64,000 nt of DNA from a virus (IMGVR_UViG_3300021431_004525); one strand, 5' to 3'. Counted from the first letter of the stretch, positions 1 through 47,612 are shown. Numbers and translations: made by a program. The notes: generated by a model not told the origin, from the sequence alone.

Positions 1-820
1 ACGTGTTTTTGCACGGGCCTAATCGGCTATAAGACCTTTACGTTCACATTAACCAACAATTTCCACTTTTCATGCCGGCACATCTCCTAAATCATCATCG
101 TAATCACTACGTTAATGTAAACTCTCTTAGTACATGCCATTGTCAGAATTATTGCAAATCATTCCGACTGAGTTTATCCTTCTCGTCCCTGCGTTACCGC
201 TTGCCAATCAGGCCCGGTCCGCAATCTGCGCTTGAAGGTTGAGCCACTTTCCGAAAGAGAACGTAGAGAGAACCGGATATGGCATTGCCACTTACACATG
301 CAATGAAAGATTATAATCCAACAATTGACACGGGCGAATTTCATATAGTCCACTGACTTTAATTCGCAAAGGCGATGTGGCTTGTTCTCACTTTGGTCTA
401 TGCTGCGGTATCTGTGCGTCACCGTTTCACCTATATAACGGGCTGCGTTGATTAGCGTCAGCAATAAGCCTTATTTTAAATATGAATTTATATTATACTA
501 ACCTTATTTGTCAAGGCTTGTCCCTTACTCTTATCATAGTTCCAAAGTCTTATATTAATATTAAACAAATCAAATCTTACATGCCCTTTAATTGGGCGGA
601 GGTCTTGTGTCCATATTATTTGAACTATTACGGATTGGTACTAAGGTGGAATATTCCCCACAACCTCCCATCATCCATCGTTGGTTTTACAACTCCGCTA
701 ATACTTTCTTGCGGGTGTCACGGTCATTTGTTTTATTTTGACAATGCAAAGTTACAACAATTTTCTCATATTTCCAAATATTTTATGTTAAAAAGTGTAA
801 AGCCTTATGTTAAAAACCGT

Positions 821-952
821 TTAGTGTTTGCGTTTTCGTTCACCAAAGGATTTAGGGTCATTAGCAATCTCTGTTGCACCGGCTTTCAGCATTTGAGGAA
901 TACGCTCATACTCTCTTTGGGTGAAAAAATTTACGATATAAGGTGTTTCCAT
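821..952 (-). CDS. small hypothetical protein (43 aa, METPYIVNFF...)
   Basis: Translated by hand; below the ORF-track cutoff; AT-rich leader. Confidence 0.45.
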   Translation of the reverse strand: METPYIVNFFTQREYERIPQMLKAGATEIANDPKSFGERKRKH

Positions 953-980
953 ATAGATTGATATTTCTTTTTATTATTTA

Positions 981-1105
981 ATCACGGGGAATTAGCGGTT
1001 GCCGGTTAAGCCCTCACCAGTTTTTGTTTAGACCTCCTTCTTAAACTGCGCAGCGGTTAGGTACTGGGTCTGCTTGGGTTCCGGTCAACCCCGCTATTCC
1101 GTGAT
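981..1105. ncRNA. candidate structured RNA / long imperfect hairpin
   Basis: ATCACGGGGAATTAGCGGTTGCCGG (981-1005) pairs with CCGGTCAACCCCGCTATTCCGTGAT (1081-1105); GC-rich island in AT-rich intergenic DNA. Confidence 0.45.
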
Positions 1106-1129
1106 ATGTTTTACTTTCGTTTATTCTTT

Positions 1130-1456
1130 TCAAGCAGCCAACTTGTTAATAACCTGCTTCAACCTACTTGTCACAAAGCCTTTCGTCTTGTTGTCCTTGA
1201 TGGTGTCGCTCAACATGTCGCAGATATAGTTCAGCGTTGGAATGACATTCTCAGATGTAATGTTTCCGGTACCGACTTTTGCAGCGGCCTTGCTAAGTTC
1301 CTCTCCATGGCTTTCAATTGCAAGAATGATAGCGTCCTTATCCCAAGCATGGATGCCGGTGAATGTGGCCAATGCCTTGCCGTTCTTACACACTACTACG
1401 TTTCCGTTCTTGTCCATCACGTCAAACGTACCTACTTTTGTCACAATCTGTACCAT
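1130..1456 (-). CDS. hypothetical early protein, C-terminal -LAA
   Basis: 108 aa ORF with plausible composition. Confidence 0.75.
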   Translation of the reverse strand: MVQIVTKVGTFDVMDKNGNVVVCKNGKALATFTGIHAWDKDAIILAIESHGEELSKAAAKVGTGNITSENVIPTLNYICDMLSDTIKDNKTKGFVTSRLKQVINKLAA

Positions 1457-1527
1457 AATTCTTAGATGTTTTTATTAATCAATGTTTAACTTAATCTGTC
1501 TACCATACTCATTTGAGTACATGGGGG

Positions 1528-1601
1528 TGACTCCGGCGTGGCTCGAACACGCGACACCAAGTTTAGGAAACTTGTGCTCTATCCAACTGAGCTACGGAGC
1601 C
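1528..1601 (-). tRNA. tRNA-Arg (anticodon CCT)
   Basis: Reverse complement GGCTCCGTAGCTCAGTTGGATAGAGCACAAGTTTCCTAAACTTGGTGTCGCGTGTTCGAGCCACGCCGGAGTCA folds as a cloverleaf; anticodon loop TTCCTAA; no encoded CCA. Confidence 0.95.
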
Positions 1602-1793
1602 TGTTTGTAGGTTTTCCTATTCCACCTACCAAGCCACATGGACTTAACTCTCACCATGTTCTACCGGTCAATTCCGTTTGGGTCAGGACTAATCTAACAC
1701 ACCTCTCGGCTTGTCTGCACTTTCTTAGGGTGCTTGCGGCCTAATTGAAAACCCACTATTGGTAAAACTCCTTCAGCCTATTGTCCTTAGTTT

Positions 1794-2036
1794 TTATTCC
1801 ATTGTCGGCATAAATAGATTTACAAAATGAGCATAAAATAGGCTTGTGGCATCAGCTAATTGACTTATATTTTCATTCTCGGCAGTGATTGAAACAAAAA
1901 CAAAGCCTTCATAGATGTCCTCTTTATATGAAAACTTGGTGCCAAAGGCTGGAAAAACTGAATTGATAAACTCTTTCAGTTGCTCTAATTCTTTTTCATT
2001 TCCACTTTTTTCGATGTTCAAAAGCTGAATCTTCAT
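1794..2036 (-). CDS. hypothetical early protein
   Basis: 80 aa ORF downstream of promoter at 2068; GGAGA upstream. Confidence 0.7.
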   Translation of the reverse strand: MKIQLLNIEKSGNEKELEQLKEFINSVFPAFGTKFSYKEDIYEGFVFVSITAENENISQLADATSLFYAHFVNLFMPTME

Positions 2037-2175
2037 AATCTAATCTCCTATTAATTTAAATTGACACTGCAAAGTTACGAATAATTTTTTAATCTACCAA
2101 ACTTTTTTGCTTAAAGAAGTTTAATGAATTGTTAATTGATGTTAATGTGTACTCATTCGAGTACATGGGGTCTGC

Positions 2176-2481
2176 TCATGCTGCCTCCACGAAGAAGATA
2201 GGATATTTTCCACGTTCATTGTCGCAATTGTAATACCGGAAGTCATTAACGATATTCTCAAAGGTACTGCCATTGGTAAAGGCATTATCCTCAACATGTT
2301 TCTTACTTGTGGGGAAAGGTTTTTGCCACACATTGTTTACACGCATCATGCAAGGGTGCATCCATATAGGTTCACCATTCTCATAGGCTTTCTTTGCCAT
2401 AGGTGCTGTAACTTGTTTCACTTTGTGAGAAATACCATCACAGTCTACCATTTGAAAAGTCATTCCTTTATAGCGTAACAT
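2176..2481 (-). CDS. hypothetical early protein, C-terminal -EAA
   Basis: 101 aa ORF. Confidence 0.8.
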   Translation of the reverse strand: MLRYKGMTFQMVDCDGISHKVKQVTAPMAKKAYENGEPIWMHPCMMRVNNVWQKPFPTSKKHVEDNAFTNGSTFENIVNDFRYYNCDNERGKYPIFFVEAA

Positions 2482-2549
2482 ATTCTTATTTCTAAATAAT
2501 ATTTGTTATTTGTTACTCATTTGAGTACATGGGTAGGTAATGTGGGGGC

Positions 2550-3239
2550 TTATGCGGCCTCCACGTTACACACCTTACCTTTAAGACTACTCTCTTTGTA
2601 ATAGACGGCTTCACCATTTGAGAAAACACCGCCACAGACGTAAACCTCCTCACAGATATACCGGCACACATCGTCGACCTCATCAGATAGTTTTTCTATC
2701 ATACCATTCAGCCACTTCACAAGGTTTTTCCTTTGGATTTTAGCCAATCCGGCATTCCATGTGTCACACCATGAATCGGTGACATTTTCTTGCCATGTGT
2801 CGGCAATATCATCCACAAGAGACTCTATGGAATAATTTTCAGAAATCCGGAAGTGATTACCGTAATTATCAGATATACAAATGTCCCAATCGTAGTTCAT
2901 TCCGGAATAATGACCGCTATGAACATAAATCTCCTGACTGAATTCAAAATTGTTGAAATCCATGTCAGCACCCTTTTTACCGAAAGCATACCATTTAGAC
3001 TTAGACGAAAGACAAGATGCGTGCATACTATCTTGATAGGAGTTACGGTCATTGTAGTCCACAGGGTCAAAACCCTTTTCCTTTGCGCTTTCTTGTGCAA
3101 AGTCGATATCGCAATCATAGTCAATGGAATCCTTAAATACCTCGACCTCCTCCTCAAGTTCATCATCATAAGCGGTTGTTGTATCGCCTACGACATAATA
3201 ATTACGTGCATTGATTTTGTGGAAATTAGGACAACTCAT
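2550..3239 (-). CDS. acidic hypothetical early protein, C-terminal -EAA
   Basis: 229 aa, D/E-rich. Confidence 0.85.
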   Translation of the reverse strand: MSCPNFHKINARNYYVVGDTTTAYDDELEEEVEVFKDSIDYDCDIDFAQESAKEKGFDPVDYNDRNSYQDSMHASCLSSKSKWYAFGKKGADMDFNNFEFSQEIYVHSGHYSGMNYDWDICISDNYGNHFRISENYSIESLVDDIADTWQENVTDSWCDTWNAGLAKIQRKNLVKWLNGMIEKLSDEVDDVCRYICEEVYVCGGVFSNGEAVYYKESSLKGKVCNVEAA

Positions 3240-3253
3240 AATGTAAAGAATTT

Positions 3254-3427
3254 TTATTTGTTATACTTCTCGAATACATAGCCATAAGCAAGAATAGACG
3301 CAAAAAACCCTACAGAAATCGTTAAAAAACTTCTGTACGGATTGGATAAACAGAATACGCTATAGCCTAATATAGCGCACCATATAAGTGTAATAAACAC
3401 TAAAAGAAATCTTTTCTTATTATTCAT
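3254..3427 (-). CDS. small membrane protein (57 aa, two hydrophobic segments)
   Basis: MNNKKRFLLVFITLIWCAILGYSVF...FLTISVGFFASILAYGYVFEKYNK; directly after promoter at 3462. Confidence 0.6.
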   Translation of the reverse strand: MNNKKRFLLVFITLIWCAILGYSVFCLSNPYRSFLTISVGFFASILAYGYVFEKYNK

Positions 3428-3669
3428 ATACCTTAATTTTTAGATGTTATTTGAAATCGGATGCAAAGGTAAGCATAATATTTGAGACCACCAAATTTTC
3501 AGCGTTTTTTTATGATTTGTTAAGGAATACCCATGAATTGTGTTAAAGTAATGTTAAACACCTCAAAATATTTGCATAATTCAAAGAAATGTATTACCTT
3601 TGCAGTGTCAAAAGTTAAGGGAATGACACCCCACAAGTTTAACATCTTTAATTTATAGGAGAGACAAAT

Positions 3670-3957
3670 ATGACTAACAAGGATTTGATTAAGGCTTTTA
3701 TCAACGGCAAAGAGGCACAGAATAAGTCAATGCGTACCAATGGTACAAAGTTGTTCAGTTATTTTACTTGCATCGCTCAGAAGACTTCTGACGGCATTCT
3801 ATTTAACGTCTGCAAGTATAGCACGACAACAAGCAAGCAGCAGACCTACACACGAGATGAACTTGAGATACACGGAAAAAAGTTTACAGAAGTAGGTGCG
3901 GACACATACATACCGCGTGGCACATGCGACCTCACACGCTACCATAAGGCAGCATAA
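3670..3957 (+). CDS. hypothetical early protein, C-terminal -KAA
   Basis: 95 aa; promoter at 3595; AGGAGAG upstream. Confidence 0.85.
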   Translation: MTNKDLIKAFINGKEAQNKSMRTNGTKLFSYFTCIAQKTSDGILFNVCKYSTTTSKQQTYTRDELEIHGKKFTEVGADTYIPRGTCDLTRYHKAA

Positions 3958-4007
3958 GGTTAAAATAAAATTTCATTTTTTTGTTTTTTGAATTTTTATA
4001 TTTATCT

Positions 4008-4045
4008 TTCCCCTTCAGTCCGTGATGGATAGAGGGGGGATTTAT
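4008..4045 (+). terminator. hairpin terminator with inner CAGTCCGnGAnGGATAG motif (second copy 7641-7675)
   Basis: TCCCCTT-CAGTCCGTGATGGATAG-AGGGGGA and TCCGTT-CAGTCCGAGAGGATAG-GACGGA, each followed by T-rich sequence. Confidence 0.6.
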
Positions 4046-4078
4046 TTAACATTTTTTAATAAATAAAAATTGGACATG

Positions 4079-4111
4079 TTGGAAACTATACTTCAAAGTT
4101 TCACCCTTGCC
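4079..4111 (-). ncRNA. 33-nt hairpin motif RNA, copy 1
   Basis: GGCAAGGGTGAAACTTTGAAGTATAGTTTCCAA; just downstream of minus promoter at 4131; no ORF. Confidence 0.55.
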
Positions 4112-4331
4112 CTTTGTCTTTCATTGACGATACAAAGGTACAAAGAATCTTTGAAATATCCAAATAAAAATCAATTTATTTTCAACGGGTTATTGTTTTT
4201 TAACAGAAAATTAACGAATTGCAAAACTATATTAAAAAATCGCCAAAAATTTGGTAGTCTCAGATTTTTGTTGTACCTTTGCATCAGAAATCAAGGAATA
4301 ATTCCGAGATAACATAAATTAGTTTTTTAAT

Positions 4332-4592
4332 ATGGAACGTTTAGAAATAAAAAAGTACGACAAAAATTTCGGTGCATATCTTGTTATTAATACAAGTGAG
4401 TGTGAATCGTGGGCTGTAGATGGTGACAAGCCATTAATTCATGAGGTGACATCAGCCGAGGACTTTATGAATTTAGGTTTAGAGGTCTCAACCGATGGCA
4501 GACCGTTCACAGACCTCAAAATAGGTGAAAAAGTTGCCGATATTGATTTTGGCGGTGACTATGAGGGTGTATATGTAATGAGAGTTGGTTAA
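4332..4592 (+). CDS. hypothetical early protein
   Basis: 86 aa; promoter at 4274. Confidence 0.8.
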   Translation: MERLEIKKYDKNFGAYLVINTSECESWAVDGDKPLIHEVTSAEDFMNLGLEVSTDGRPFTDLKIGEKVADIDFGGDYEGVYVMRVG

Positions 4593-4697
4593 CATCTTTT
4601 AACAATTCTGAAATGCTTTTTAACTAAAATAATTTGCATATTTCAGAAAAATGTATTACCTTTGCAGTGTCAAATTAAAAATCAATTCATATAAGTT

Positions 4698-5045
4698 ATG
4701 GTCAGAACAGAATATCAGATAAAATTGAAAAGCGGCTTATATGTCGGCTTAGTAAATTTCGGCAGAACCTATAAGGCTTGCAAGAAGGCTTGCCGTTTGA
4801 GTGGAATCACGGAAGATACCGCAAAGCGTCTCGCAATGGATTGGGATGGCGAATTAACAGAGTTTACGCTTCTCCCGTGTGTGATGTCCAACTATGGCGA
4901 AGGATGGGACGTGGAATGTTTTTGCGCCACGAAAGAGGAGGCAAAGGCAGACCTTCAATCCTACCGTGAGAATTGCCGTGATGCGGCATTCCAAATAAAG
5001 TGGAAATGGAGTGAAAGATACATCAGCCTCAAGGAGGTTGCATAG
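4698..5045 (+). CDS. hypothetical early protein, C-terminal -EVA
   Basis: 115 aa; promoter at 4657. Confidence 0.8.
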   Translation: MVRTEYQIKLKSGLYVGLVNFGRTYKACKKACRLSGITEDTAKRLAMDWDGELTEFTLLPCVMSNYGEGWDVECFCATKEEAKADLQSYRENCRDAAFQIKWKWSERYISLKEVA

Positions 5046-5221
5046 AGATACGCGAAGGGGTGGCTACCCTTCTATTAGGAAAAGTAACAGAGCCTAACGT
5101 AGAAGCAAGACCAAAGTGTTTACCCTCAAAACATTTTTTAACAATTCATTTAAGTTTCTTTAGCACGAAAAAGTTGCATAATTCAGATTTTATTCGTACC
5201 TTTGTAGTACAAAAATAAAGA

Positions 5222-5254
5222 GGTAGGAGTGAAATCCTAAAGTATGGTCTCCGA
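5222..5254 (+). ncRNA. 33-nt hairpin motif RNA, copy 2
   Basis: GGTAGGAGTGAAATCCTAAAGTATGGTCTCCGA; downstream of promoter at 5197. Confidence 0.55.
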
Positions 5255-5402
5255 CACGAGCCAATTAAAATTGTTAATATTCCTTAATTTTTAACATTCT
5301 TTAACAAAAATAACTGGGCAAAAATTTGTATATTCCAAAAAATTGTCGTACCTTTGCACTATCAAAAATGAATTAGTAATAACCCTTTAATATTAATAAG
5401 GT

Positions 5403-5564
5403 ATGGTAGCAATAAATAAAAATCATCTGAAAATTGGACGTTACACAATCCAACATGATTGGAATGAAGGTTTTGTTGTCCTTGATGAAGAAGGTCAGCA
5501 GTACGGAAGTGGCTACGACCATGTATGTGATGCAATCGAACAAGTTTTGATGTATAACGACTGA
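5403..5564 (+). CDS. small hypothetical protein (53 aa)
   Basis: MVAINKNHLKIGRYTIQHDW...; promoter at 5349. Confidence 0.65.
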   Translation: MVAINKNHLKIGRYTIQHDWNEGFVVLDEEGQQYGSGYDHVCDAIEQVLMYND

Positions 5565-5705
5565 GAATTGTTAAAGGAGGTTAAAACCAGTGTTAAAAAC
5601 TGTAAATCCCTTGGTTATTCCAAAAAATATTCGTAACTTTGCATCGTCAAAATAAGACAAGTAATTCACATTAAGTTTAATTCTAAAAAATAGGAGATTT
5701 AAGTT

Positions 5706-6245
5706 ATGGCAAAAAATTCAGTTGAAACCGCAATTCGTAACGCTGCAAGCAGCAAGGTGGCAGGCAAGTTCAATCTTCCGCAGTACAAGAAAGAAGGTAC
5801 AAAGCATTATGACGAGCGACAGAAGGCACTTCTGCACAAGCGTATCTGTGAGGAAATCGTAGCCTTTGCAGACAGCCACAAGGACATCCCATTCTATTTC
5901 ATCCTTCAAGTAGGTGTCTCTAAGGGTGCTTTCAAAATGTCGGAGTTTGAGAAGGGTTACAAGCAGTTCAAGGCTTGCAAGGTGGAGCAAGTTCACATGA
6001 TGGGCATGGAGTACAACAAGTACAACGGACTTGAGGGAAAGAAGATGTCAGACGTGACCATCCGTTTGGTGATGCGTTACTACGAGAAAGTTAGCAGTGA
6101 TTTCGTGACGTTCATCAACGACCTCAACAAGTCCGAGAAATTGGGCAAGCAGTGTGGGGCACGCGGCAATTACGAAGCACTCTGCAAGAACCTTAATATC
6201 CCCGTCAAGGAGACCGAGGACAAGCCAATGGCAGATGCAGCCTAA
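5706..6245 (+). CDS. hypothetical early protein, C-terminal -DAA
   Basis: 179 aa; promoter at 5634; AGGAG upstream. Confidence 0.85.
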   Translation: MAKNSVETAIRNAASSKVAGKFNLPQYKKEGTKHYDERQKALLHKRICEEIVAFADSHKDIPFYFILQVGVSKGAFKMSEFEKGYKQFKACKVEQVHMMGMEYNKYNGLEGKKMSDVTIRLVMRYYEKVSSDFVTFINDLNKSEKLGKQCGARGNYEALCKNLNIPVKETEDKPMADAA

Positions 6246-6246
6246 A

Positions 6247-6262
6247 TGTTCCACGTGGAACA
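6247..6262. promoter_or_regulatory. parS-like palindrome TGTTCCACGTGGAACA
   Basis: Perfect 16-bp palindrome fitting the bacterial parS consensus TGTTNCACGTGNAACA. Confidence 0.7.
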
Positions 6263-6379
6263 TCAACCAAAGGGGAAGGGTATAACGCTCTTCCCTTAAT
6301 TTTTTTAACTATGTTAAAAGTGTTAATTTGCTTGCGTAATTCAATTATTTTTTGTACCTTTGCAGTAGAAAAATTAAAA

Positions 6380-6412
6380 GGTAGGGGTGAAACTCTAAAG
6401 TATAGTCTCCAA
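6380..6412 (+). ncRNA. 33-nt hairpin motif RNA, copy 3
   Basis: GGTAGGGGTGAAACTCTAAAGTATAGTCTCCAA; downstream of promoter at 6355. Confidence 0.55.
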
Positions 6413-6604
6413 TACACCCCATTATATAAATGTGAATTTTATTTAATATTATATGAATGTTATATAATTTTAACATTTTCGTACTATACTATCAGAAATG
6501 TTAATTTAATGTTAAACATACGAATTTCCTTGGTTATTTGAAAAAATTGTATTACCTTTGCATCACAATTAAAAAACAAGTTAAACATTCAAATATTAAA
6601 TAAT

Positions 6605-6862
6605 ATGTTCGGAAAAGGTTCTAAATATAGTTTCAATGGTGACGGCAATTTAGATTGTCAGTTTCTCACCTCCACCTTTGAGGATGGATATCCATATTCT
6701 GTAGGTGTCGTGAATCATACCAAAAAAACGGTTAACCCTGTTCATGGCTACCACTACCCAAACAGATGCGCAAAAGGTCTTATGAACTATGCGCTTAAAT
6801 TAGGCTACACCTATGAGGACAGCGAAATGCCAAACAAATTGAATAAAACAATTAAAAACTAA
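6605..6862 (+). CDS. hypothetical early protein
   Basis: 85 aa; promoter at 6553. Confidence 0.75.
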   Translation: MFGKGSKYSFNGDGNLDCQFLTSTFEDGYPYSVGVVNHTKKTVNPVHGYHYPNRCAKGLMNYALKLGYTYEDSEMPNKLNKTIKN

Positions 6863-6867
6863 ATGAT

Positions 6868-6990
6868 ATGATATACTTTGTAAATGGTAAGGCTAAATTT
6901 GCCTTCGGTGACAAGTCAATGAACGACCATGCAAGACAAGTCATGGATAATCTGAAATGTAAAGAAACCGGAAAAAGATTTGCTGCTTAA
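6868..6990 (+). CDS. small hypothetical protein (40 aa), C-terminal -FAA
   Basis: MIYFVNGKAKFAFGDKSMNDHARQVMDNLKCKETGKRFAA; translated by hand. Confidence 0.65.
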   Translation: MIYFVNGKAKFAFGDKSMNDHARQVMDNLKCKETGKRFAA

Positions 6991-7083
6991 CATTCTTTAG
7001 CACGGAATATTTGCATATATCAGATTTTATGACTATCTTTGCACCATCAAATTTAAGTTTAACGTTTTAATTCATTTAAAGTT

Positions 7084-7608
7084 ATGGCATACGATATTAA
7101 CAACATCATGGCAAAGGAAAACGCAATGCGCGACCCTAAGAACGTAACAGAATGGAAACAGCAACGAGAAATGTTACGCGACTATCTGATACCCATCAGC
7201 ACTGCTGAAAACGTCTCTGTGGGCGAAATATACGGCTTCTGCCCCTATATCATTTATGTAAGGATGGACGCACTGAAGCGAGAGGATTGGCCGAATAACA
7301 TCGCCGAAAATTCCATCTATATCGACTTTAAAATAGACCTTTTTAACAAAAAGGTGGAAGTACATCAAAATGGGCATATTTGGCTTTCACCATACGACAA
7401 AACAACACCAAAGTACAAGTATCTCGCCATGAAGTCAATGCAAGACGTATTGGTCGACAATGGTGGCAAGAAGTTCCGCAAACAGGGCTATAAGGACATT
7501 AAAGACCTTGCCAACAAAATGCAGAAGTATTACGCACAAGTCATGGAAGCCGTCAATGACTACACCGATGGCTATCCATACAAACAAGGAACAAAACAAG
7601 CGGCATAA
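7084..7608 (+). CDS. hypothetical early protein, C-terminal -QAA
   Basis: 174 aa; promoter at 7034. Confidence 0.85.
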   Translation: MAYDINNIMAKENAMRDPKNVTEWKQQREMLRDYLIPISTAENVSVGEIYGFCPYIIYVRMDALKREDWPNNIAENSIYIDFKIDLFNKKVEVHQNGHIWLSPYDKTTPKYKYLAMKSMQDVLVDNGGKKFRKQGYKDIKDLANKMQKYYAQVMEAVNDYTDGYPYKQGTKQAA

Positions 7609-7721
7609 ACAGATTTTTTAAATTAATACTATGTTGTTAGTCCGTTCAGTCCGAGAGGATAGGACGGATTTTATTTTACTTACATTTTGAAACATAAATT
7701 AACATATTATCAATGGATGGG

Positions 7722-7783
7722 TCGGAGATTATACTCTAAGGTGTCACCCTTACCAATCATCCATCGTTGGTTTTACAACTCCG
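7722..7783 (-). ncRNA. 62-nt structured RNA containing copy 4 of the 33-nt motif
   Basis: CGGAG...CTCCG closing stem; first 28 nt identical to 670-697; motif GGTAAGGGTGACACCTTAGAGTATAATCTCCGA at 7722-7754. Confidence 0.55.
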
Positions 7784-7796
7784 AAACTCGTTTGTG

Positions 7797-7939
7797 TGAC
7801 TCATTGGGGAATCGAACCCCAAAGGTGAACATTTTTGCCGACAGCACCATCTGTTTCCGACTACTCATGCGCTGACACCATACTTTATCATAGGATTGGT
7901 AGTCCTAAAAGCCTCCAAGCCAGCCTTATCGTTTGAGCC
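7797..7939 (-). ncRNA. tRNA-like RNA (143 nt) with oversized variable region
   Basis: Acceptor GGCTCA/TGAGTC; T arm TGGGG-TTCGATT-CCCCA; anticodon-like arm TAGGA-CTACCAA-TCCTA; promoter at 7979. Confidence 0.6.
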
Positions 7940-8172
7940 TTTGTTATTTGAAAGAACGCCTTTTATTTCTTTTGACGATGCAAAGGTACAAAATAATCTT
8001 GAATTTCTATGTTAATTGACTGTTAAAAATTCGTTAAAAAACGTTCAATTGTTAAATAAACTAAATCCACTAAAAATAAATTCATTTTTTCTTGCATATA
8101 TCAGTTTTTTTCCGTACCTTTGCATCGTGAAATTAAAACAAATAGTAATAACTCTTTAATACATTATTTATT

Positions 8173-9276
8173 ATGACACAGATTTTGAATATCAACGGAC
8201 AGAGTAACGTGAGCGTTAATCCTAACACAGAGACGGGCGCACAGCGTGTAGCATGGCAGCAGTTCGGTACAATCTGCGAGAAGGGTGCAACCATCCACGA
8301 CGTTATGGCAGACGTAACAAGTGAAAACCGCATTAACTATGAGGTTGGCGAAATGCCACTGATGCGTGTACCTTCTGAAATGGTTGAGGCTATCCGCAAA
8401 GGTGAGGCTTTCGATTGGAATCCGTCAGTGTCCGACATCATCAGCACCCATAAGGCTACGCTGCGCACTGACAATAACGACACACTTGGTATCGTAGGTA
8501 AGGGCTACGGAATCGTGCAGAACAGCAAGGCTTTCGACTTCATGGACTTCATTAAGGAGGCAAGCGGTAGTGAACCCGTTATCGAATCCTATGGCGCACT
8601 TGGCTATGGCGAACGTATGTTCATCACTGCCACACTTGGTGAGGATTCGTATCTTAACCCTAACGACGCAATCAAGAACTATGTGGTGTTCACTAACTCA
8701 CATGATGGCAGTGGCGGTGTCATGGCTTTCTTCACCCCGATTCGTGTGATTTGTCAGAACACGCTGAACATGGCTATTAAGGGCTGCGCCAACAAAGTGG
8801 TGTTCAAGCACACTTCTAAGGTCGACGAGCGTCTTGATTGGACTATCGAGCGCAACCGCAAAATTGCTGCTGAACTTTTCAGCAAGTCAGTGAAATTTAG
8901 CGACAAGTTCATGGAGCGTATGCTTGGACTCAAGGAGGAGACCATCACTGCTGAATATGCACGAGACTTCGTAGGCAAGTTGTGTCTGACTGCTCCCGCC
9001 TTTGAACTTTGGAAGAAGGCTGACTTCAAGGCTGACCACGTTGAGGAAATCAGCACACGGACAAAGAACATTATGGCAGCCCTGACGGACAGCATCGAGA
9101 ATGGAGTAGGACAGGAGTACAATCGTGGCACAAAGGTGTGGCTGCTGAATGGTGTGACTACCTACCTTCAGAATGAGAAAAATTGGAAATCTCAGGAAGA
9201 CAAGTTCAACGCTATGATGTTCGGTAGCGCACAGAAGAAGGTCGAGGATGCTTACCAACTGCTGATGGCTGCGTAA
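8173..9276 (+). CDS. DUF932/DUF945 (phage/plasmid-like) protein, C-terminal -MAA
   Basis: Motifs LGIVGKGYGIVQNSKAF, NSHDGSG, TPIRVICQNTL, KHT, W.LLNGVT. Confidence 0.85.
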   Translation: MTQILNINGQSNVSVNPNTETGAQRVAWQQFGTICEKGATIHDVMADVTSENRINYEVGEMPLMRVPSEMVEAIRKGEAFDWNPSVSDIISTHKATLRTDNNDTLGIVGKGYGIVQNSKAFDFMDFIKEASGSEPVIESYGALGYGERMFITATLGEDSYLNPNDAIKNYVVFTNSHDGSGGVMAFFTPIRVICQNTLNMAIKGCANKVVFKHTSKVDERLDWTIERNRKIAAELFSKSVKFSDKFMERMLGLKEETITAEYARDFVGKLCLTAPAFELWKKADFKADHVEEISTRTKNIMAALTDSIENGVGQEYNRGTKVWLLNGVTTYLQNEKNWKSQEDKFNAMMFGSAQKKVEDAYQLLMAA

Positions 9277-9292
9277 GGTTTCACGTGGAACA
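9277..9292. promoter_or_regulatory. second parS-like site GGTTTCACGTGGAACA
   Basis: One mismatch to TGTTTCACGTGGAACA; immediately after the stop codon, as for the first site. Confidence 0.6.
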
Positions 9293-9297
9293 TACAC

Positions 9298-9510
9298 GGA
9301 GGGGGATGTGGTAGGGCTACTGCACCCCCTCCCTATGTACCCCCTACCTACGTATCCACCCTCTCAGCCACCCCCTATGTTTCCGGCTGACGGTAGCACA
9401 CGGTTTGCTCTGCAAATCTTTGAAAAAATTCTGGAAAAAAATTAAGGGGGTGGGGGTTATTCTATTAAAGGTTATTTCAAAAAAAATTCCAGAAAAATTT
9501 TTGAAAATCT
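9298..9510. other. G/C-run and A/T-run non-coding segment; candidate genome-end/packaging or origin region
   Basis: Runs such as CACCCCCTCCCTATGTACCCCCTACC, GGGGGTGGGGGT, AAAAAATTCTGGAAAAAAA and AAAAAAATTCCAGAAAAATTTTTT; lies at the boundary of the early region. Confidence 0.35.
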
Positions 9511-9640
9511 AAAATATGACATATATTAAACAAATGTACTAAATATGTAAATTTAAGTTTCTTTAACTAAAAAGATTTGGCTATTTTGGCAAAAATGAGT
9601 AATTTTGCATTTGAAATTATTTTAAAATGAAAAAATACTT

Positions 9641-11383
9641 ATGGAAGTACAACAACAGAAAAAAATCACAGAAATTTTCAACACAATTGGTTGGAAACGT
9701 CAAAATGCTGAACGTTTAGTAATTGAAGAAAATGAACAGCGCGGTTATGAATGGGGGACTCAGCAGTTCAAAGAATTGATGGAAGACATTGAAGAACAAA
9801 TAGCGTCTAAATCCCCTAAAGAAATATATTTATCAACATTTCTTAGTCACCAAGAAGCAAATTCTCCATTTACTAAGATATTTGATGGTAATCAACGTTT
9901 AACTACAATTTTAATACTATTAATTGCTCTTCGTGATTATATCAAGCACAATTTTGAAGAGAACTTATATTATAATGACATTATTCGTAGAATTGAAGAA
10001 TGTATTTTTAATTCTAACAATGAATGTATTATGATTTTGCAAAACGAAGATAACAATTGTCTTACTGATATTCTCAATAACAGTGATTCTGTGTTCAAGA
10101 GTGTATATATGTTTAAAAACAATCTTGTTAACAAAATGTATCGTAACTGTTATAATTACATACACATGCGCACAGAACAATGTCCTGATTATCCGTTTTT
10201 ACTTTTTACAAAAGGCATTGAAAATGTAGTAATGGCAGAAGAACGTGCAACAACAAAAAATGAGGCAAGGCGTTTGTTTGGTAGAAAGAACGCTTCTGGT
10301 ATTAATGTAGCAAAAGGAAATGTAATTTCCTCTTTTATTTGTGGTTTAATTGATTTATATACTGACAGTCGTGATGAGTTCATTCACGTCAAGACTAAAT
10401 TTGATGGTGCAATGTCTCGTATTCCGTCAAAAGAGTACACTGACTTTTACCGTCTTTTTCTTTATTATTTAAAAGACACATATTTAACTCCGTCTCAAAC
10501 ACAAAAGGAAATTGAAAAAATCACTAAATCGGCATTAAAGGGTACTGAAAAGAATGACCATTTTAGTAACATTTCTGAATTGATTGACTGTATTGACCGT
10601 TTCAGTAAATTTATGTCTGAAGTTAGTCATAAGCGTTTAAGTGAGTTTGCACCTTCGCATAAGATTAATCGTCTGCTTTCATTAACACCAGATGAAATAA
10701 CAATTACGATTACGATGATAGATTTATTTACTGACAAATATTCTAATTACAACATTGATAATGAAGATAAATATCAAATATTAAATGGTGTAATGAAAAT
10801 TATCGTAAGAAGAATGTTCGCGCCAAATTCTACTAACCATTCGGAAAAGACTATGCTTAATGTAATGGGAAACATCCTAACTTTGAAGGGGTGTAATGAA
10901 CATTTATATCAGACGTTTAAACGTTACATGTCTGGCGAAACAAACAAGGCACTATGTTATGGCTATTTGACTGAAAGTGACCTTATAGAAAGAGTATCTA
11001 AAATTCCGGTTTATAGGCGTTTAGGTTCTAGGATGCAAGTGTTAAAATACTTATTCCATAACTTAAACAAATATGTTAATAGTGGTATCGAACAATATGT
11101 CTACACTGACTTTAATGATATGACTATAGAACACATTAAATCACAAAATGAATTTTCATCGAAAGACCTTTTACAACACACAATTGGTAATCTTACACCA
11201 CTTACACGAAATAATAACTCACGCTGTAAAAATCGTCCATTCAATGATAAAAAGGCTGTATACCTTAATAGCGGAATAAAATTAACAGAAAGTGTCGGCT
11301 CAAAGGCATATTTCAATAATGAAGAAATTGTTAATAGGAGTAATGAACTTGCCCCATTAATTATGGAAATTACAAGATTATAA
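9641..11383 (+). CDS. GmrSD-like protein (DUF262 + DUF1524/HNH)
   Basis: QRGYEW and DGNQRLTT (DUF262); C-terminal TIEHIKSQ...IGNLTPL...N (DUF1524 HNH). Confidence 0.8.
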   Translation: MEVQQQKKITEIFNTIGWKRQNAERLVIEENEQRGYEWGTQQFKELMEDIEEQIASKSPKEIYLSTFLSHQEANSPFTKIFDGNQRLTTILILLIALRDYIKHNFEENLYYNDIIRRIEECIFNSNNECIMILQNEDNNCLTDILNNSDSVFKSVYMFKNNLVNKMYRNCYNYIHMRTEQCPDYPFLLFTKGIENVVMAEERATTKNEARRLFGRKNASGINVAKGNVISSFICGLIDLYTDSRDEFIHVKTKFDGAMSRIPSKEYTDFYRLFLYYLKDTYLTPSQTQKEIEKITKSALKGTEKNDHFSNISELIDCIDRFSKFMSEVSHKRLSEFAPSHKINRLLSLTPDEITITITMIDLFTDKYSNYNIDNEDKYQILNGVMKIIVRRMFAPNSTNHSEKTMLNVMGNILTLKGCNEHLYQTFKRYMSGETNKALCYGYLTESDLIERVSKIPVYRRLGSRMQVLKYLFHNLNKYVNSGIEQYVYTDFNDMTIEHIKSQNEFSSKDLLQHTIGNLTPLTRNNNSRCKNRPFNDKKAVYLNSGIKLTESVGSKAYFNNEEIVNRSNELAPLIMEITRL

Positions 11384-36182: not shown

Positions 36183-38603
36183 ATGTTTGAAGCGAATTTT
36201 ACTAACGAAGCGGCTAATGTATTTCAATATATAAAAGATAATTTAATTAAGAAATATCCGTCAGATAAGATTACAATAGAGTATTTTATATTGTCTATTT
36301 TAGAAAACGAAGATTCAATCGGTTATCAGATACTATCTAAATCGACATTGACAAGTACACTGAATGGCATACACGATTGGTTTGTTCAATTTTTATCTAA
36401 GTTTAGTAATCAAAAGACCGTTGATAATATATCATATGATACTATATATGATAGGGCAATTGAACTTGCCAAGAAAGATTACAATGTTGATAATATAACT
36501 TCCGGGCATATATTGCTTTCTATCTTCAAACTTAGTGAGGGCATTTCTAAACAATTTAAACAGATTGGAATAACATACAACCAATTGTTAGCCAACCTAA
36601 ATTCAGTTTTACCGCCATCTGATAATAAGAAACCTGTTAGGGCAACCATTAAACTGCAAGTACCAAAAGGTGCTGTTGAAGAATTGTTGGTGGATATGAA
36701 TGAGTTGGCTTCAAACGGTAAGATAGATGAAGTCATTGGCAATGAAGAGACAATTAATAAAATTTTCAATATATTATCAAAACGTGACCGTAATAATGTT
36801 GTTATAGTCGGAGATTCCGGAATCGGTAAGACCGCAACGGTATCACATATTGCGAATTTATTGGTTAGTGGGAACGTACCAAAGCCTTTTAAAAACAAGA
36901 AACTTATTAAGTTCGATTTTATGAGTCTTGTTGCAGGTGCGGTTCTAAGAGGTAATTTCGAGGCAAAATTCAACGCAATTATAGCAGATGCCGTTAAAAA
37001 GGGTGGATATATATTCTTTATCGATGACTTGCAATCGATTCTATCTGATAAAAGTAAGTTCGCTGAAATCAATACGGAAAACTTACTCGACATGATTTTG
37101 ATGGAGCGTAATATCGGATTTATCTGTACGATGGATAACAGCTCGTATAATGCATACATCTATAATAATCCATCAATGAAAAGGCGTTTCCAAAAAATTG
37201 TAATGAAAGAGAAGGATATAGATACCGTCATATCAATTCTTAAATTGTGTAAGACAAAATATGAAAAATATCATAATGTATCTTACACTGATGGGGCTGT
37301 AGAAACTTGTGTAAAGTTAGTTAAACGTTACGTAAAGGATGGAAAATTGCCGGACTATGCAATAGATGTGTTCGATGAGATAGGCGCAAAAAAATCATTG
37401 GAGGTAAAAGAAGATGAACGTGTTGAGGAATGTAAGGAAAAATTAAAAGCAGTAAAAGAAAAAATCTCCAAGATTAATAATAGTACGGAAAGAAAGGATT
37501 ATGATGAGTATGATAATTTGAAAAATGAAGAGATTCTATTGAAGTCTGAGTTGTCTTTAATTGAAAAGGAAAATCTTTTGAATAATAAACCAATTGAAAT
37601 AACTGAAGATGATGTAAAAGAACAGATTTCGCTTAAAATTAATGTCCCACTTAGTAAAATAACTGAAAATGAAAGGGATAAACTTAAAAACCTTAATTCA
37701 AAATTAAAGGAATATGTAGTTGGACAAGACACTGCCGTTGATGAAGTGTGCCGTGTTGTCAAAAGACAAAGAATCGGTATGGTTAACAACAACAGACCGG
37801 CTGTATTATTCTTCAGTGGCATGACCGGAACAGGTAAAACTTATTTGGCTAAAAAACTCGCACAAGAGGTATTCGGTGATGAGAAATCGATGATAAGGCT
37901 TGATATGAGTGAGTATTCGGATAAGATGAGCGTAAATAAACTGTATGGTGCGGCAGCAGGATATATTGGCTATGATAAAGGTGGTATTCTTACAGAGGCA
38001 ATCAAAAAGAATAATCACTGTGTATTGCTGCTTGATGAAATGGAAAAGGCTAATGAAGACGTTCATAATGTATTCTTACAGTTGTTTGATGAAGGCAGGA
38101 TGACTGATAACATGGGAAATGTTGTAGATTTTTCCAATGTCATTGTAATCATGACATCCAACGTAGGTGCTAAGGAAATTGCACAAAAGGGAAAGGGTGT
38201 GGGATTTGTTAAGAATGAAAACTCGAACAACAAAGAGGCAATAGATAAAGCCATGAAGAACAAATTCAGACCGGAATTTATCAACCGTATTGATAGTGTT
38301 ATTTATTTCAATAAACTCTCAGAAGAAAATATAAAGGAGATAATTAAACTTGAAATAATCAAACTTGGAGAACGTATTGAAAATATCAAATATAAGTTAG
38401 GTGAGAGTTTTACGGATGATAGATGTATCTCTTATATATATAATAAGGTAAAGGAAGATGATGAATACGGCGCAAGACCTATTATACATACGATACAACA
38501 TGAATTTGAGGATAGGATAACAGATTATATTATTAATGAACAGCCCTCAGATGGCTTTGTTTTTGAACTGTCTGAAATAGGCTTGGAAAATATTTTAAAA
38601 TAA
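36183..38603 (+). CDS. clpC: ClpC/ClpB-type AAA+ ATPase
   Basis: Clp-N repeats; GDSGIGKT; coiled-coil M domain; GMTGTGKT; LLDEMEKA; GVGF loop; FRPEFINRID; YGARPI. Confidence 0.88.
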   Translation: MFEANFTNEAANVFQYIKDNLIKKYPSDKITIEYFILSILENEDSIGYQILSKSTLTSTLNGIHDWFVQFLSKFSNQKTVDNISYDTIYDRAIELAKKDYNVDNITSGHILLSIFKLSEGISKQFKQIGITYNQLLANLNSVLPPSDNKKPVRATIKLQVPKGAVEELLVDMNELASNGKIDEVIGNEETINKIFNILSKRDRNNVVIVGDSGIGKTATVSHIANLLVSGNVPKPFKNKKLIKFDFMSLVAGAVLRGNFEAKFNAIIADAVKKGGYIFFIDDLQSILSDKSKFAEINTENLLDMILMERNIGFICTMDNSSYNAYIYNNPSMKRRFQKIVMKEKDIDTVISILKLCKTKYEKYHNVSYTDGAVETCVKLVKRYVKDGKLPDYAIDVFDEIGAKKSLEVKEDERVEECKEKLKAVKEKISKINNSTERKDYDEYDNLKNEEILLKSELSLIEKENLLNNKPIEITEDDVKEQISLKINVPLSKITENERDKLKNLNSKLKEYVVGQDTAVDEVCRVVKRQRIGMVNNNRPAVLFFSGMTGTGKTYLAKKLAQEVFGDEKSMIRLDMSEYSDKMSVNKLYGAAAGYIGYDKGGILTEAIKKNNHCVLLLDEMEKANEDVHNVFLQLFDEGRMTDNMGNVVDFSNVIVIMTSNVGAKEIAQKGKGVGFVKNENSNNKEAIDKAMKNKFRPEFINRIDSVIYFNKLSEENIKEIIKLEIIKLGERIENIKYKLGESFTDDRCISYIYNKVKEDDEYGARPIIHTIQHEFEDRITDYIINEQPSDGFVFELSEIGLENILK

Positions 38604-46335: not shown

Positions 46336-47502
46336 TTATGCGGCCTCTTTATTTTTATCCTTATTCTGATATTTGGAAACCATATCAGCGGTAATTGTAA
46401 GAGTTACCTTTTCCTTGTTGTAACCACCGTAATCAAACATAACATCAGCAAGCAACTTGTCGATAACGCCACGAAGACTACGAGCACCGGTTTTCTTTTC
46501 GTATGCTTCCTTGGCAATAAGTCTAAGTGCATCATCCTCGAATGTTAAATCAACATTATCAATCCAAAACAGTTTCTGATACTGTTTAACGATAGAGTTT
46601 TTAGGCTCTTTCAGAATTTGGAACAACTGTTCCTCAGTAAGATGCTTTGTATGCGTGACAAGTGGGAAACGTCCGATAAGTTCCGGTATGATGCCAAACT
46701 TCTTCAAATCATCAGTCGTAACATCAGCAAGCAAATCCTCTTCCTCGTTATTAGTTCCGTTCATTATTGAATTGAAACCAATCACCTTTTTATTCTTGCG
46801 CTTCTCAATGATTTTCTCTAAGCCATCAAAAGCACCAATGCCAAAGAAAAGAATATTTGTGGTATCAACAGGAATACACTCCTGTTCAGGATGCTTACGT
46901 CCACCATTCGGCGGAACAAGAACGTTAGTACCCTCAACAATTTTAAGCAATGATTGCTGTACGCCTTCACCGCCTACATCACGTGTAATTGACGTATTTT
47001 CACTCTTTCGTGAAATCTTATCGAACTCATCTAATACAACAATCCCATGTTCTGCTGCTTGAATGTTAAGATTTGCTGCCCGCAAAACACCAAGTACAAC
47101 AGTTTCTACATCATCACCAACGAAACCAGATTCGGTAACTTTTGTTACATCAGCAATGTAGAATGGGATATTCAGATGCTTTGCAAGCATTCTAAGCATA
47201 AATGTTTTACCAGTTCCACTTGGACCGCAAATGATGGTGTTACTCTTTTCAATTTCTACGTCACTGTACGGATTGTCTTCCTCTCCTTGTGTGTATCCGT
47301 ATATGTTGTCCATGAAACGTTTGTAATGGTTATACACAGCCACAGAAATATACTTTTTGGCCTCCTCCTGTCCGATTACATACTGATTAAGGTAGTCATA
47401 GAGATATTTTGGAGTAACTTTGTCCATAATCTCACGCATTTGTGCCTTAATCTCATTCACTTCTTCTAAAGATACTTCTTCTGTTTTCTTTTTTGCCGTC
47501 AT
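46336..47502 (-). CDS. clpX: ClpX ATPase lacking the N-terminal zinc-binding domain; C-terminal -EAA
   Basis: [55 protein letters not shown] loop, PELIGR, GARSLR; start reassigned to MTAKK. Confidence 0.95.
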
Positions 47503-47612
47503 AAAAATATTTTTTGCTTTAAATTCGAGTGCAAAGGTACTAAATATTTTTTTAAACACCAAATATTTCTATATTTATTTTTATAGATTTTCGTATTTTT
47601 TAACATTTACAT

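What the first reader, a model, noticed from the sequence alone, without database searches (positions are those of the whole stretch)
1130..9276. Early proteins carry C-terminal Ala-Ala (ssrA-like) degrons
Seen: 8 of the 15 ORFs I accept in 800-9300 end in AA: 1130 KLAA, 2176 VEAA, 2550 VEAA, 3670 HKAA, 5706 ADAA, 6868 RFAA, 7084 KQAA, 8173 LMAA. A ninth (4698) ends EVA. Codons vary (GCTGCT, GCAGCA, GCCGCA, GCAGCC, GCGGCA, GCTGCG), so selection acts on the protein rather than on a DNA repeat. Among the accepted genes in the rest of the window only ClpX ends in AA. Known: ClpXP recognises the terminal AA-COOH of the ssrA tag. Inference: early products are hard-wired for timed destruction, or they saturate/decoy host ClpXP.
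Basis: partly seen in the sequence, partly recalled or inferred. Interest (0 to 1): 0.85.

Follow-up and report, generated by a model that had tools for sequence, protein, structure and literature searches.

The report
Ala-Ala tails on jumbo-phage early proteins
In a family of huge phages from ruminant guts, an 8-kb block of small, unrelated early genes nearly all end in Ala-Ala, kept by natural selection on otherwise hypervariable tails; this ending matches the bacterial "destroy-me" (ssrA) tag, so these proteins are probably built to be degraded by a Clp protease, though no degradation has been measured.

Summary
Eight of about 14 genes in window 1-9300 end in Ala-Ala and a ninth ends in Val-Ala, against 1 of 62 genes elsewhere in the window (Fisher p = 1e-6; about 0.04 expected from composition).

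Selection acts on the protein. The Ala codons differ synonymously between relatives and never change the residue. The proteins are not paralogues.

Three families were followed into a 5.8-billion-protein database:
- 5706 family: 119 of 120 cluster representatives end in (A/V)A, on a 10-43-residue tail that is otherwise hypervariable and predicted disordered.
- 2550 family: 26 of 33 end in xA.
- 7084 family: a variable appended tail that mostly ends in AA.

The block sits behind Bacteroidota-type sigma-A promoters, so it is probably early. All 30 Bacteroidota tmRNA tags sampled end in AA. The phage carries a ClpX that lacks the zinc-binding domain but keeps the pore, RKH and IGF loops, plus a ClpC-like ATPase.

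Limits: the tag is not a general trait of genes behind these promoters. It is nearly absent from two more distant relatives that also carry ClpX. The reader of the tag (ClpXP) is inferred, not shown.

The scan's earlier AI notes describe similar Ala-Ala tails in other phages. Verdict: a new variant of a known kind, interest about 0.65.

The parts
1130..1456 (-). 108-aa gene of unknown function, ends KLAA
   Evidence: The orthologues in G001, L064 and L061 (68-94% identity) all end KLAA, with three different Ala codon pairs. Covered by an RNA-library contig.
2176..2481 (-). 101-aa gene, ends VEAA
   Evidence: Relatives end VAAA and VPAA, so position -3 is free while AA is kept. More distant relatives end IEVE, IEAE or IKA.
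2550..3239 (-). 229-aa gene, ends VEAA
   Evidence: Of 33 database cluster representatives, 22 end AA, 3 VA and 1 LA, across several tail lengths down to about 46% identity. No Pfam, PHROG or NCBIfam match.
3670..3957 (+). 95-aa gene, ends HKAA
   Evidence: G001 has a tail of different length, VKKEAA. More distant relatives end YIK, YIKK, KKA or KKNE. A promoter -7 box lies at 3595-3602.
4698..5045 (+). 115-aa gene, ends KEVA (Val-Ala variant)
   Evidence: The orthologue in L062 ends KEAA and the one in L061 ends KAAA, so VA and AA interchange within one family.
5706..6245 (+). 179-aa all-helical protein with a disordered acidic tail, ends ADAA
   Evidence: of 120 cluster representatives, 104 end AA, 15 VA and 1 AV. 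Right-anchored entropy is 0.07 and 0.54 bits at the last two positions against 2.0-3.3 bits at positions -3 to -14; tail length is 10-43 aa. AlphaFold2 gives pLDDT 89.5 overall, with residues 169-179 below 50. No fold match.
6868..6990 (+). 40-aa gene, ends RFAA
   Evidence: Relatives end TLAA, KLAA, RLAA and RLAA; one ends RLDA.
7084..7608 (+). 174-aa protein, ends KQAA on a coil tail
   Evidence: The conserved core ends at GYPYK. It is followed by an appended tail of 0-14 aa that mostly ends AA or VA (examples TKQAA, IKKAEAA, IEQPTEDVKAA, IVPPDGEKAA). AlphaFold2 gives pLDDT 88.9, with residues 162-174 lacking secondary structure.
8173..9276 (+). DUF932 / TIGR03299 protein, ends LMAA
   Evidence: Closer relatives end LMAA, LAAA or LLAA; more distant ones end LLSA, TKIA, MLVA or LLAC. 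Far DUF932 members often end in a hydrophobic residue followed by A, so part of this signal is a family trait.
46336..47502 (-). Phage ClpX without the zinc-binding domain, ends KEAA. The true start is probably the ATG at 47502.
   Evidence: NCBIfam ClpX equivalog score 479 bits against a cut-off of 359. Alignment to H. pylori ClpX 1um8 shows the GFVG pore loop, the RKH loop and the IGF loop. No Cys cluster at the N-terminus. Promoter -7 box TACCTTTG at 47532-47539.
36183..38603 (+). ClpC/ClpA-like double AAA+ ATPase with a VGF (ClpP-docking type) loop
   Evidence: A GVGF motif lies at residues 672-675 of the second AAA module. The protein is below the equivalog cut-offs of ClpA and ClpB.
3464..3471 (-). 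-7 box (TACCTTTG) of a Bacteroidota-type promoter driving 3427 to 2176 on the minus strand
   Evidence: TTG-N19-TAnnTTTGCA architecture.
8115..8122 (+). -7 box of the promoter before the DUF932 gene. Equivalent boxes lie at 3595, 4274, 4657, 5349, 5634, 6553 and 7034.
   Evidence: Twelve TACCTTTG sites lie in 1-9300 against 3 in the other 54.7 kb.
4332..4592 (+). Untagged gene in the same block (ends MRVG); serves as an internal control
   Evidence: the orthologues keep MRVG or MRIG. The other untagged neighbours are 3254-3427, 5403-5564 and 6605-6862.

Best explanation
A block of small, unrelated, cytosolic proteins of a rumen jumbo phage (host probably Bacteroidota) each carries an encoded C-terminal (Ala/Val)-Ala-COOH, in the two proteins modelled at the end of a flexible tail. 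The genes are transcribed from host-type sigma-A promoters and are therefore probably early. The tail works as a built-in ssrA-like degron. The free Ala-Ala carboxyl end enters the axial pore of a ClpX hexamer, either host ClpX or the phage's own ClpX that lacks the zinc-binding domain. That hexamer is docked through its IGF loops on ClpP. The protein is then unfolded and degraded, so each tagged product is short-lived. The variable residues upstream of AA would set the rate. Shown: the enrichment, the selection on the last two residues, the flexible tails, the promoters and the intact ClpX motifs. Inferred: who reads the tag, that the proteins are unstable, and the timing.
For: 1. Enrichment: 8 of 14 genes against 1 of 62. 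Independent gene calls on relatives give 10 of 21 and 8 of 27.
2. Protein-level selection: between the window, G001 and L002 the 18 terminal Ala codons show 12 synonymous and 0 non-synonymous changes. About 21 of 54 positions at -3 to -8 differ, including indels. Codon pairs vary within every family.
3. The tagged proteins are not paralogues.
4. Deep families: in the 5706 family 119 of 120 representatives end (A/V)A on a hypervariable tail of 10-43 aa. In the 2550 family 26 of 33 end xA. The 7084 family has an appended tail of variable length that mostly ends AA.
5. The tails are predicted flexible: pLDDT below 50 for residues 169-179 of the 5706 protein, and coil for residues 162-174 of the 7084 protein.
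6. AA, VA and AV are the C-terminal endings known to be read by ClpX. In an unbiased E. coli screen, 91% of the top 100 C-terminal pentapeptide degrons ended in AA (PMC10862746). AA-to-DD or VA-to-DD changes stabilise CmdA and HigA1 (bioRxiv 10.1101/2024.02.24.581848).
7. All 30 Bacteroidota tmRNA tags sampled end in AA.
8. The phage ClpX passes the equivalog cut-off and keeps the pore-1, RKH and IGF loops but lacks the zinc-binding domain. From established knowledge of E. coli ClpX-deltaN, that form still degrades ssrA-tagged substrates.
9. None of the eight N-termini looks like a signal peptide or membrane anchor by eye; no predictor was run.
10. RNA-library contigs from three studies cover the genes.
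Against: 1. No degradation data exist.
2. Position -3 is often acidic or polar (E, D, K, Q) rather than the Leu of LAA. In E. coli, AA alone is not sufficient and acidic contexts are weak.
3. Two related jumbo phages carry ClpX, and G003 also carries ClpP, yet they have 1 of 310 and 0 of 409 AA ends. The tags are therefore not tied to possession of a phage ClpX.
4. No ClpP gene was found in the window, G001 or G002.
5. The DUF932 end is probably helical, and part of that signal is a family trait.
6. Many genes behind the same promoter type are untagged.
7. The host assignment rests only on promoter motifs and habitat.
Confidence: 0.55

Rival explanations
1. Same tag and same reader, different purpose. 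The tagged proteins are made in bulk to compete for ClpXP and other proteases that read ssrA tags. This slows degradation of host or phage substrates, for example ClpXP-dependent activation of toxin-antitoxin or abortive-infection systems.
For: The tags sit on genes with strong host-type promoters. ClpXP degradation of an AA-ended antitoxin triggers the CmdTAC phage defence, so blocking ClpXP could benefit a phage.
Against: One abundant decoy with an optimal LAA-like end would be enough. Instead, nine or more different folded proteins each keep a tag in diverse, often weak-looking contexts, and single families gain and lose it independently. The phage also adds ClpX capacity rather than an inhibitor.
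Confidence: 0.12
2. The (A/V)A-COOH end is read by something other than ClpX. Candidates are the phage ClpC-like ATPase, FtsH, Lon or an unknown phage factor. The outcome could be degradation, remodelling, or docking and localisation rather than ClpXP proteolysis.
For: A shared terminal dipeptide on unrelated proteins requires a common reader, but nothing here identifies it. The upstream contexts differ from LAA. The tag is lineage-restricted while ClpX is not. A ClpC-like protein with a VGF loop is encoded nearby.
Against: No PDZ, ClpS or SspB domain was found in the three related records. AA, VA and AV are exactly the ClpX-type variants. ssrA-type ends are the dominant short C-terminal degron class known.
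Confidence: 0.2
3. There is no shared function. The AA ends come from chance, common descent of a C-terminal module, a DNA or RNA motif at gene ends, or stop-codon context.
For: GCN GCN followed by a stop is a short string. DUF932 and ClpX families often end in Ala in general.
Against: Binomial p is about 5e-18. blastp finds no similarity between the tagged proteins. The wobble positions vary, and terminal codon usage equals the genome-wide Ala usage. The downstream sequences are unrelated. The terminal dipeptide is invariant on hypervariable tails of different length. The other 62 genes of the window do not show the feature.
Confidence: 0.02

Closest known systems
tmRNA (ssrA) tag and natural ssrA-like 'C-motif 1' ClpX degrons (for example ...LAA, ...VAA, ...LVA; CmdA AA, HigA1 VA, sigma-AntA AA)
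   Same: A free C-terminal Ala-Ala or Val-Ala on an accessible tail. The last two residues are the only constrained ones. The sampled Bacteroidota tags end ALAA, AMAA, AVAA, AYAA or RLAA.
   Different: The tails here are encoded in the genes rather than added by trans-translation. Position -3 is usually polar or acidic. The window's tails contain no copy of the tag's upstream part. Nothing has been tested biochemically.
ssrA-like tags on the repressor and integrase of mycobacteriophage BPs and relatives (integration-dependent immunity; PMC4557955)
   Same: A phage gene encodes its own C-terminal ssrA-like degradation tag to make the product unstable.
   Different: In BPs, one or two regulators of a temperate switch are tagged, and the tag is removed by integration at an attP site inside the gene. 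Here nine or more unrelated proteins in one early block of a large lytic-type phage are tagged, with no sign of an attP site or a switch.
Clp components encoded by jumbo phages (ClpX, ClpA, ClpP, ClpS; PMC7824862, PMC6102473)
   Same: This phage family encodes ClpX and a ClpC/ClpA-like ATPase, and relative G003 also encodes ClpP.
   Different: The published work gives no substrates and suggests roles in assembly or action on the host. Here a candidate set of phage-encoded substrates is identified, although possession of ClpX does not predict the tags.
The scan's own earlier notes on other phages (e1-5364399, e1-5335866, e1-3267603)
   Same: Ala-Ala or Ala ends over-represented on phage proteins, in one case in huge phages that carry ClpX.
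   Different: Those are different phage lineages and hosts, and they are AI notes that I did not check. The Rhizobium phage cases also copy the SspB-binding head ANDN, which has no counterpart in the window.

Membership tests
ssrA-like C-terminal ClpX degron (C-motif 1) | Last two residues are Ala-Ala (or Val-Ala) with a free carboxylate | tested here: met
ssrA-like C-terminal ClpX degron (C-motif 1) | The terminal dipeptide is functionally constrained independently of the rest of the tail | tested here: met
   Zero non-synonymous against 12 synonymous changes. Entropy is 0.07 and 0.54 bits at the last two positions against 2.0-3.3 bits upstream. Ala codons vary within every family.
ssrA-like C-terminal ClpX degron (C-motif 1) | Non-polar residue at -3 (the Leu of LAA), which contributes to ClpX binding in E. 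coli | tested here: not met
   Only 1130 (L), 6868 (F) and 8173 (M) fit. The others have E, E, K, D, Q and E at -3. In the 5706 family position -3 is mostly D, E or K, with a hydrophobic residue at -5 instead.
ssrA-like C-terminal ClpX degron (C-motif 1) | The C-terminus is accessible or unstructured | tested here: met
   This is prediction only. The 5706 tail has pLDDT below 50 and the 7084 tail is coil. The other seven proteins were not modelled.
ssrA-like C-terminal ClpX degron (C-motif 1) | ClpX- and ClpP-dependent degradation that is abolished by AA-to-DD | not testable with these tools
   Needs experiments.
ssrA-like C-terminal ClpX degron (C-motif 1) | The host's quality-control tag has the same end, so a reader exists in the cell | tested here: met
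   All 30 tmRNA tags from 30 Bacteroidota genomes end in AA. The host phylum is itself inferred from promoters and from the ruminant-gut habitat.
ClpX (AAA+ unfoldase of ClpXP) | Scores above the curated equivalog cut-off | tested here: met
   NF003745 scores 479 bits against a cut-off of 359; TIGR00382 scores 466 against 371.
ClpX (AAA+ unfoldase of ClpXP) | Walker A and B motifs, pore-1 loop, RKH loop and IGF ClpP-docking loop | tested here: met
   [24 protein letters not shown] and VIGF are seen in the alignment to 1um8 and in the translation.
ClpX (AAA+ unfoldase of ClpXP) | N-terminal C4 zinc-binding domain | tested here: not met
   The profile match begins at model position 40-53, and there is no Cys cluster in the N-terminus. 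Homologues in G001-G003 are 377-385 aa.
tmRNA-tag mimicry that includes the adaptor-binding head (as noted by the scan in Rhizobium phages) | Copy of the upstream part of the host tag, for example (G/A)ENNYA in Bacteroidota | tested here: inconclusive
   The window's tails lack it. About 17 of 120 tails in the 5706 family read E-N-N-(G/A)-(L/I)-x-x-A-A. In E/K/N-rich tails this could be chance.

The most novel reading that the evidence does not exclude
A widespread family of rumen jumbo phages runs a hard-wired proteolytic programme. Evolvable 'linker plus Ala-Ala' modules are appended to a set of early effector proteins. A phage ClpX without the zinc-binding domain, which should then be restricted to C-terminal tags, docks on ClpP to clear these proteins on schedule. 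This would give the first defined substrate set for the Clp genes that many jumbo phages carry.
Probability: 0.3. Interest if true: 0.8.

Novelty: new variant of a known kind. Interest (0 to 1): 0.65.

Why it matters
Encoded ssrA-like tags are known on single phage regulators and on a handful of bacterial proteins. Here, half of a gene block carries them: nine or more unrelated proteins. Hundreds of natural variants show that only the last two residues are constrained.

If the tails are degrons, this would be a general way for a phage to limit the lifetime of its early products. It would also supply candidate substrates for the unexplained ClpX, ClpC and ClpP genes of jumbo phages. The natural tails would form a ready-made series of tags of graded strength for Bacteroidota. 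The claim can be tested directly with reporters carrying AA or DD ends.

Tried and rejected
- Finding the window's own genome: none is held. An exact 39-mer from the window is absent from IMG/VR, and megablast against GenBank phages finds nothing. Genome-wide statistics therefore come from relatives G001-G003.
- Function of the tagged proteins: Pfam, PHROGs and NCBIfam give nothing except DUF932. Foldseek against the PDB finds no significant match for the 7084 or 5706 models. The ESM Atlas feature search on the 2550 protein gave no usable hit.
- Promoter class as a predictor of the tag: strict TACCTTTG within 150 nt gives p = 0.15 in the window and p = 0.005 in G001. A looser -33/-7 pattern with operon extension shows no association. 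That transcription-unit assignment is crude, and I do not claim a class-wide link.
- Host identification through ClpX: the genome-contig scan returned only distant HslU- or ClpX-like hits in unrelated phyla. It was useful only as a route to a Bacteroidota genome handle.
- 'The phage ClpX is itself tagged' as strong evidence: rejected, because 29 of 66 close cellular ClpX homologues end in Ala.
- ClpP in the window, G001 or G002: not found. G001 and G002 are incomplete records.
- ClpS, SspB and PDZ domains in G001-G003: none found.
- Rfam scan of 1-10000: only the tRNA matched.
- RNA-library contigs show presence only. They give no transcript ends, strand or level, and parts without cover mean nothing.
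- Complex prediction was not used: a ClpX hexamer exceeds its size limit, and a monomer-peptide job would not be informative.
Full report
**What the window is**

The 64-kb window is part of a large tailed phage.
- It has a T4-type portal (55997-58063) and large terminase (54035-55957), a ClpX-like gene, a ClpB/ClpC-like gene, GmrSD, a TnpB element and one tRNA-Arg.
- No whole genome is held for it, and it matches no GenBank phage at the DNA level.
- IMG/VR holds relatives. G001 (= L001) is 125 kb and about 83% identical in DNA. L002 is similar. G002 is 237 kb, with about 54% protein identity in the DUF932 gene. G003 is 339 kb, complete with terminal repeats, at about 43% identity.
- Near-identical DNA occurs in sheep, goat and bovine gut metagenomes from 14 or more studies.
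- Intergenic regions in 1-9700 carry TTG-N19-TAnnTTTGCA promoters, the Bacteroidota sigma-A architecture, in front of almost every gene. The strict TACCTTTG box occurs 12 times in the first 9.3 kb and 3 times in the remaining 54.7 kb.
- I therefore take the host to be a rumen Bacteroidota and the block to be transcribed by host RNA polymerase, meaning probably early. Both are inferences.

**The observation**

- A dicodon-trained gene caller that ignores C-termini finds 14 genes in 1-9300, of which 8 end in Ala-Ala. It finds 62 genes elsewhere, of which only the ClpX-like gene does.
- Alanine makes up 5% of residues, so about 0.04 AA ends are expected in 14 genes. The binomial p is 5e-18 and the Fisher p against the rest of the window is 1.3e-6.
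- Database gene calls, which are not mine, on diverged relatives give 10 of 21 genes (L061), 8 of 27 (L064), 4 of 20 (L062), 2 of 18 (L065) and 0 of 22 (L066).

**Selection acts on the protein**

- Between the window, G001 and L002, the 18 terminal Ala codons of nine genes show 12 synonymous and no non-synonymous changes.
- Right-anchored positions -3 to -8 differ at about 21 of 54 sites. Tail length also changes: HKAA against VKKEAA, and TKQAA against IKKAEAA.
- Within each family several GCN pairs are used.
- Terminal Ala codon usage resembles the genome-wide usage, and the DNA after the stops has nothing in common.
- blastp finds no similarity among the tagged proteins.

**Three families in the 5.8-billion-protein collection**

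- 5706 family: 253 hits were found and 120 cluster representatives listed. Of these, 104 end AA, 15 VA and 1 AV. The conserved core ends at ...NLNIP, and the tail that follows is 10-43 residues long, acidic or polar, and hypervariable. Right-anchored entropy is 0.07 and 0.54 bits for the last two positions against 2.0-3.3 bits for the twelve before them. Even G002, which has a single AA-ended gene among 310, has it on this orthologue.
- 2550 family: 22 of 33 representatives end AA, 3 VA and 1 LA, across several tail lengths. The exceptions are mostly the most distant members or forms cut just before AA.
- 7084 family: the core ends at GYPYK. It is followed by no tail or by an appended tail of 8-14 residues that mostly ends AA or VA.
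- 4698 family: the window's EVA end alternates with EAA and AAA in relatives, so Val-Ala is a variant of the same signal.
- Untagged neighbours keep their own non-Ala ends, for example MRVG and TIKN.
- In the L010 lineage the orthologues of four tagged genes all end in a single Ala (KKA, IKA, YKA, LVA). The background frequency of Ala ends there is about 2-4%.

**Structure of the tails**

- AlphaFold2 with family alignments gives confident folds for the two proteins modelled.
- The 5706 protein has pLDDT 89.5 and is all-helical, with residues 169-179 below pLDDT 50.
- The 7084 protein has pLDDT 88.9, and its last 13 residues lack secondary structure.
- Neither fold matches a solved structure, so what these proteins do is unknown.
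- None of the eight N-termini looks like a signal peptide or membrane anchor by eye; no predictor was run.

**Who could read the tag**

- The ClpX-like gene probably starts at the ATG at 47502, downstream of a TACCTTTG box at 47532-47539. It passes the NCBIfam ClpX equivalog cut-offs.
- It aligns along its length with solved ClpX structures. It keeps the Walker motifs, the pore-1 loop (GFVG), the RKH loop and the IGF loop, but it has no zinc-binding N-domain.
- From established work on E. coli ClpX-deltaN, such a form still handles ssrA-tagged substrates but not substrates that depend on the N-domain or on adaptors.
- The 806-aa ClpC-like protein has a VGF loop of the ClpP-docking kind.
- ClpP itself was found only in the complete relative G003. 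For the window's phage, ClpP would be the host's, or encoded outside the sequence I could see.
- All 30 tmRNA tags from 30 Bacteroidota genomes end in AA: ALAA, AMAA, AVAA, AYAA and RLAA.
- In an unbiased E. coli screen of C-terminal pentapeptides, AA ended 91% of the 100 best degrons. AA alone was not sufficient, and upstream residues mattered (PMC10862746).
- AA-to-DD or VA-to-DD substitutions stabilise the ClpXP substrates CmdA and HigA1.

**Limits and contrary evidence**

- The tag is not a property of early genes as a class. In G001 the same promoter type extends over more than 50 kb. Only the block of about 9 kb syntenic with window 1-9300 (9 genes), three other genes (one a SprT-like peptidase) and ClpX carry AA.
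- G002 and G003 encode ClpX, and G003 also ClpP, but they have 1 of 310 and 0 of 409 AA ends. Possession of a phage ClpX therefore does not predict the tags.
- The phage ClpX's own AA end is weak evidence. Of the 66 closest full-length cellular ClpX representatives, 29 end in Ala, 6 of them in AA and 5 in VA.
- Position -3 is mostly polar or acidic, unlike LAA.
- DUF932 proteins tend to end in a hydrophobic residue followed by Ala in general.
- No PDZ, ClpS or SspB domain is encoded in the three related records, so no alternative phage-encoded reader of a known kind is visible.

**Expression**

Contigs assembled from four metatranscriptome runs of three studies lie on the individual genes of the block, for example 7105-7604, 8175-9375 and 4561-5066. 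This is consistent with transcription in the rumen. It gives no ends, strand or level, and DNA carry-over cannot be excluded.

**Comparison with what is known**

- Encoded ssrA-like tags are documented for the repressor and integrase of mycobacteriophage BPs (PMC4557955) and for several bacterial regulators.
- Jumbo-phage Clp genes are known but have no assigned substrates (PMC7824862 and PMC6102473).
- My literature searches found no report of block-wise tagging of many unrelated phage proteins.
- Earlier AI notes of this scan describe Ala-Ala or Ala ends in other phage lineages. I did not test those. They suggest the phenomenon recurs, but they are not independent evidence for the mechanism.

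**Verdict**

Its reading as an ssrA-like degron for a Clp protease is the best-supported mechanism (about 0.55) but is untested. The decoy reading and the other-reader reading remain open.

Noticed in passing
window 1-790, mainly the minus strand downstream of the promoter box at 747-754: RNA-library contigs from three studies cover this stretch at far higher word depth (424, 85, 29 and 265) than the neighbouring genes (about 1-25). One contig runs 93 nt beyond the window start. This suggests a very abundant transcript of about 0.8 kb. Rfam finds no match.
   Followed up: partly
window 4133-4140(-), 5197-5204(+), 6355-6362(+); also 747-754(-) and the leader after 3595-3602(+): Stand-alone promoter cassettes are followed by a conserved short sequence (for example ...GGTAGGGGTGAAACTCTAAAGTATAGTCTCC...) and not by a gene. 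The same repeats appear in relatives. They explain spurious ORFs such as 4070-4312, 5060-5218 and 6311-6541. Other first-stage notes call this a 35-nt hairpin RNA.
   Followed up: no
window 36183-38603 (+): ClpC/ClpA-like double AAA+ protein with a VGF ClpP-docking loop. It scores below the equivalog cut-offs of ClpA and ClpB. Homologues are present in G001-G003.
   Followed up: partly
G003 (L023, L024): 243141-243857 and 19152-19754: The complete 339-kb relative encodes two ClpP homologues. The genome search reported the second with an internal TAA.
   Followed up: no
proteins P0204-P0353: Cellular ClpX homologues that have the zinc-binding domain often end in alanine themselves: 29 of 66 end in Ala, 6 in AA and 5 in VA. 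This hints at a general trait of the ClpX C-terminus.
   Followed up: no
5706-family tails (P0051-P0170): About 17 of 120 tails read E-N-N-(G/A)-(L/I)-x-x-A-A, reminiscent of the Bacteroidota tmRNA tag (G/A)ENNYALAA seen. This may be partial tag mimicry or a composition effect.
   Followed up: partly
window 9641-11383 (+) and 40394-41590 (+): A GmrSD-type type IV restriction enzyme lies directly after the tagged block, and a TnpB (IS605 OrfB) gene lies inside the phage genome.
   Followed up: no
G001 110840-111544 (L030:10840-11544): A SprT-like metallopeptidase in the relative's early region also ends in Ala-Ala (NHYAA), as do a 411-aa protein (FPKAA) and a 67-aa protein (LKKAA) nearby.
   Followed up: partly
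window 1526-1601 (-): tRNA-Arg (anticodon CCT) sits inside the minus-strand arm of the block, between the genes at 1794-2036 and 1130-1456.
   Followed up: no
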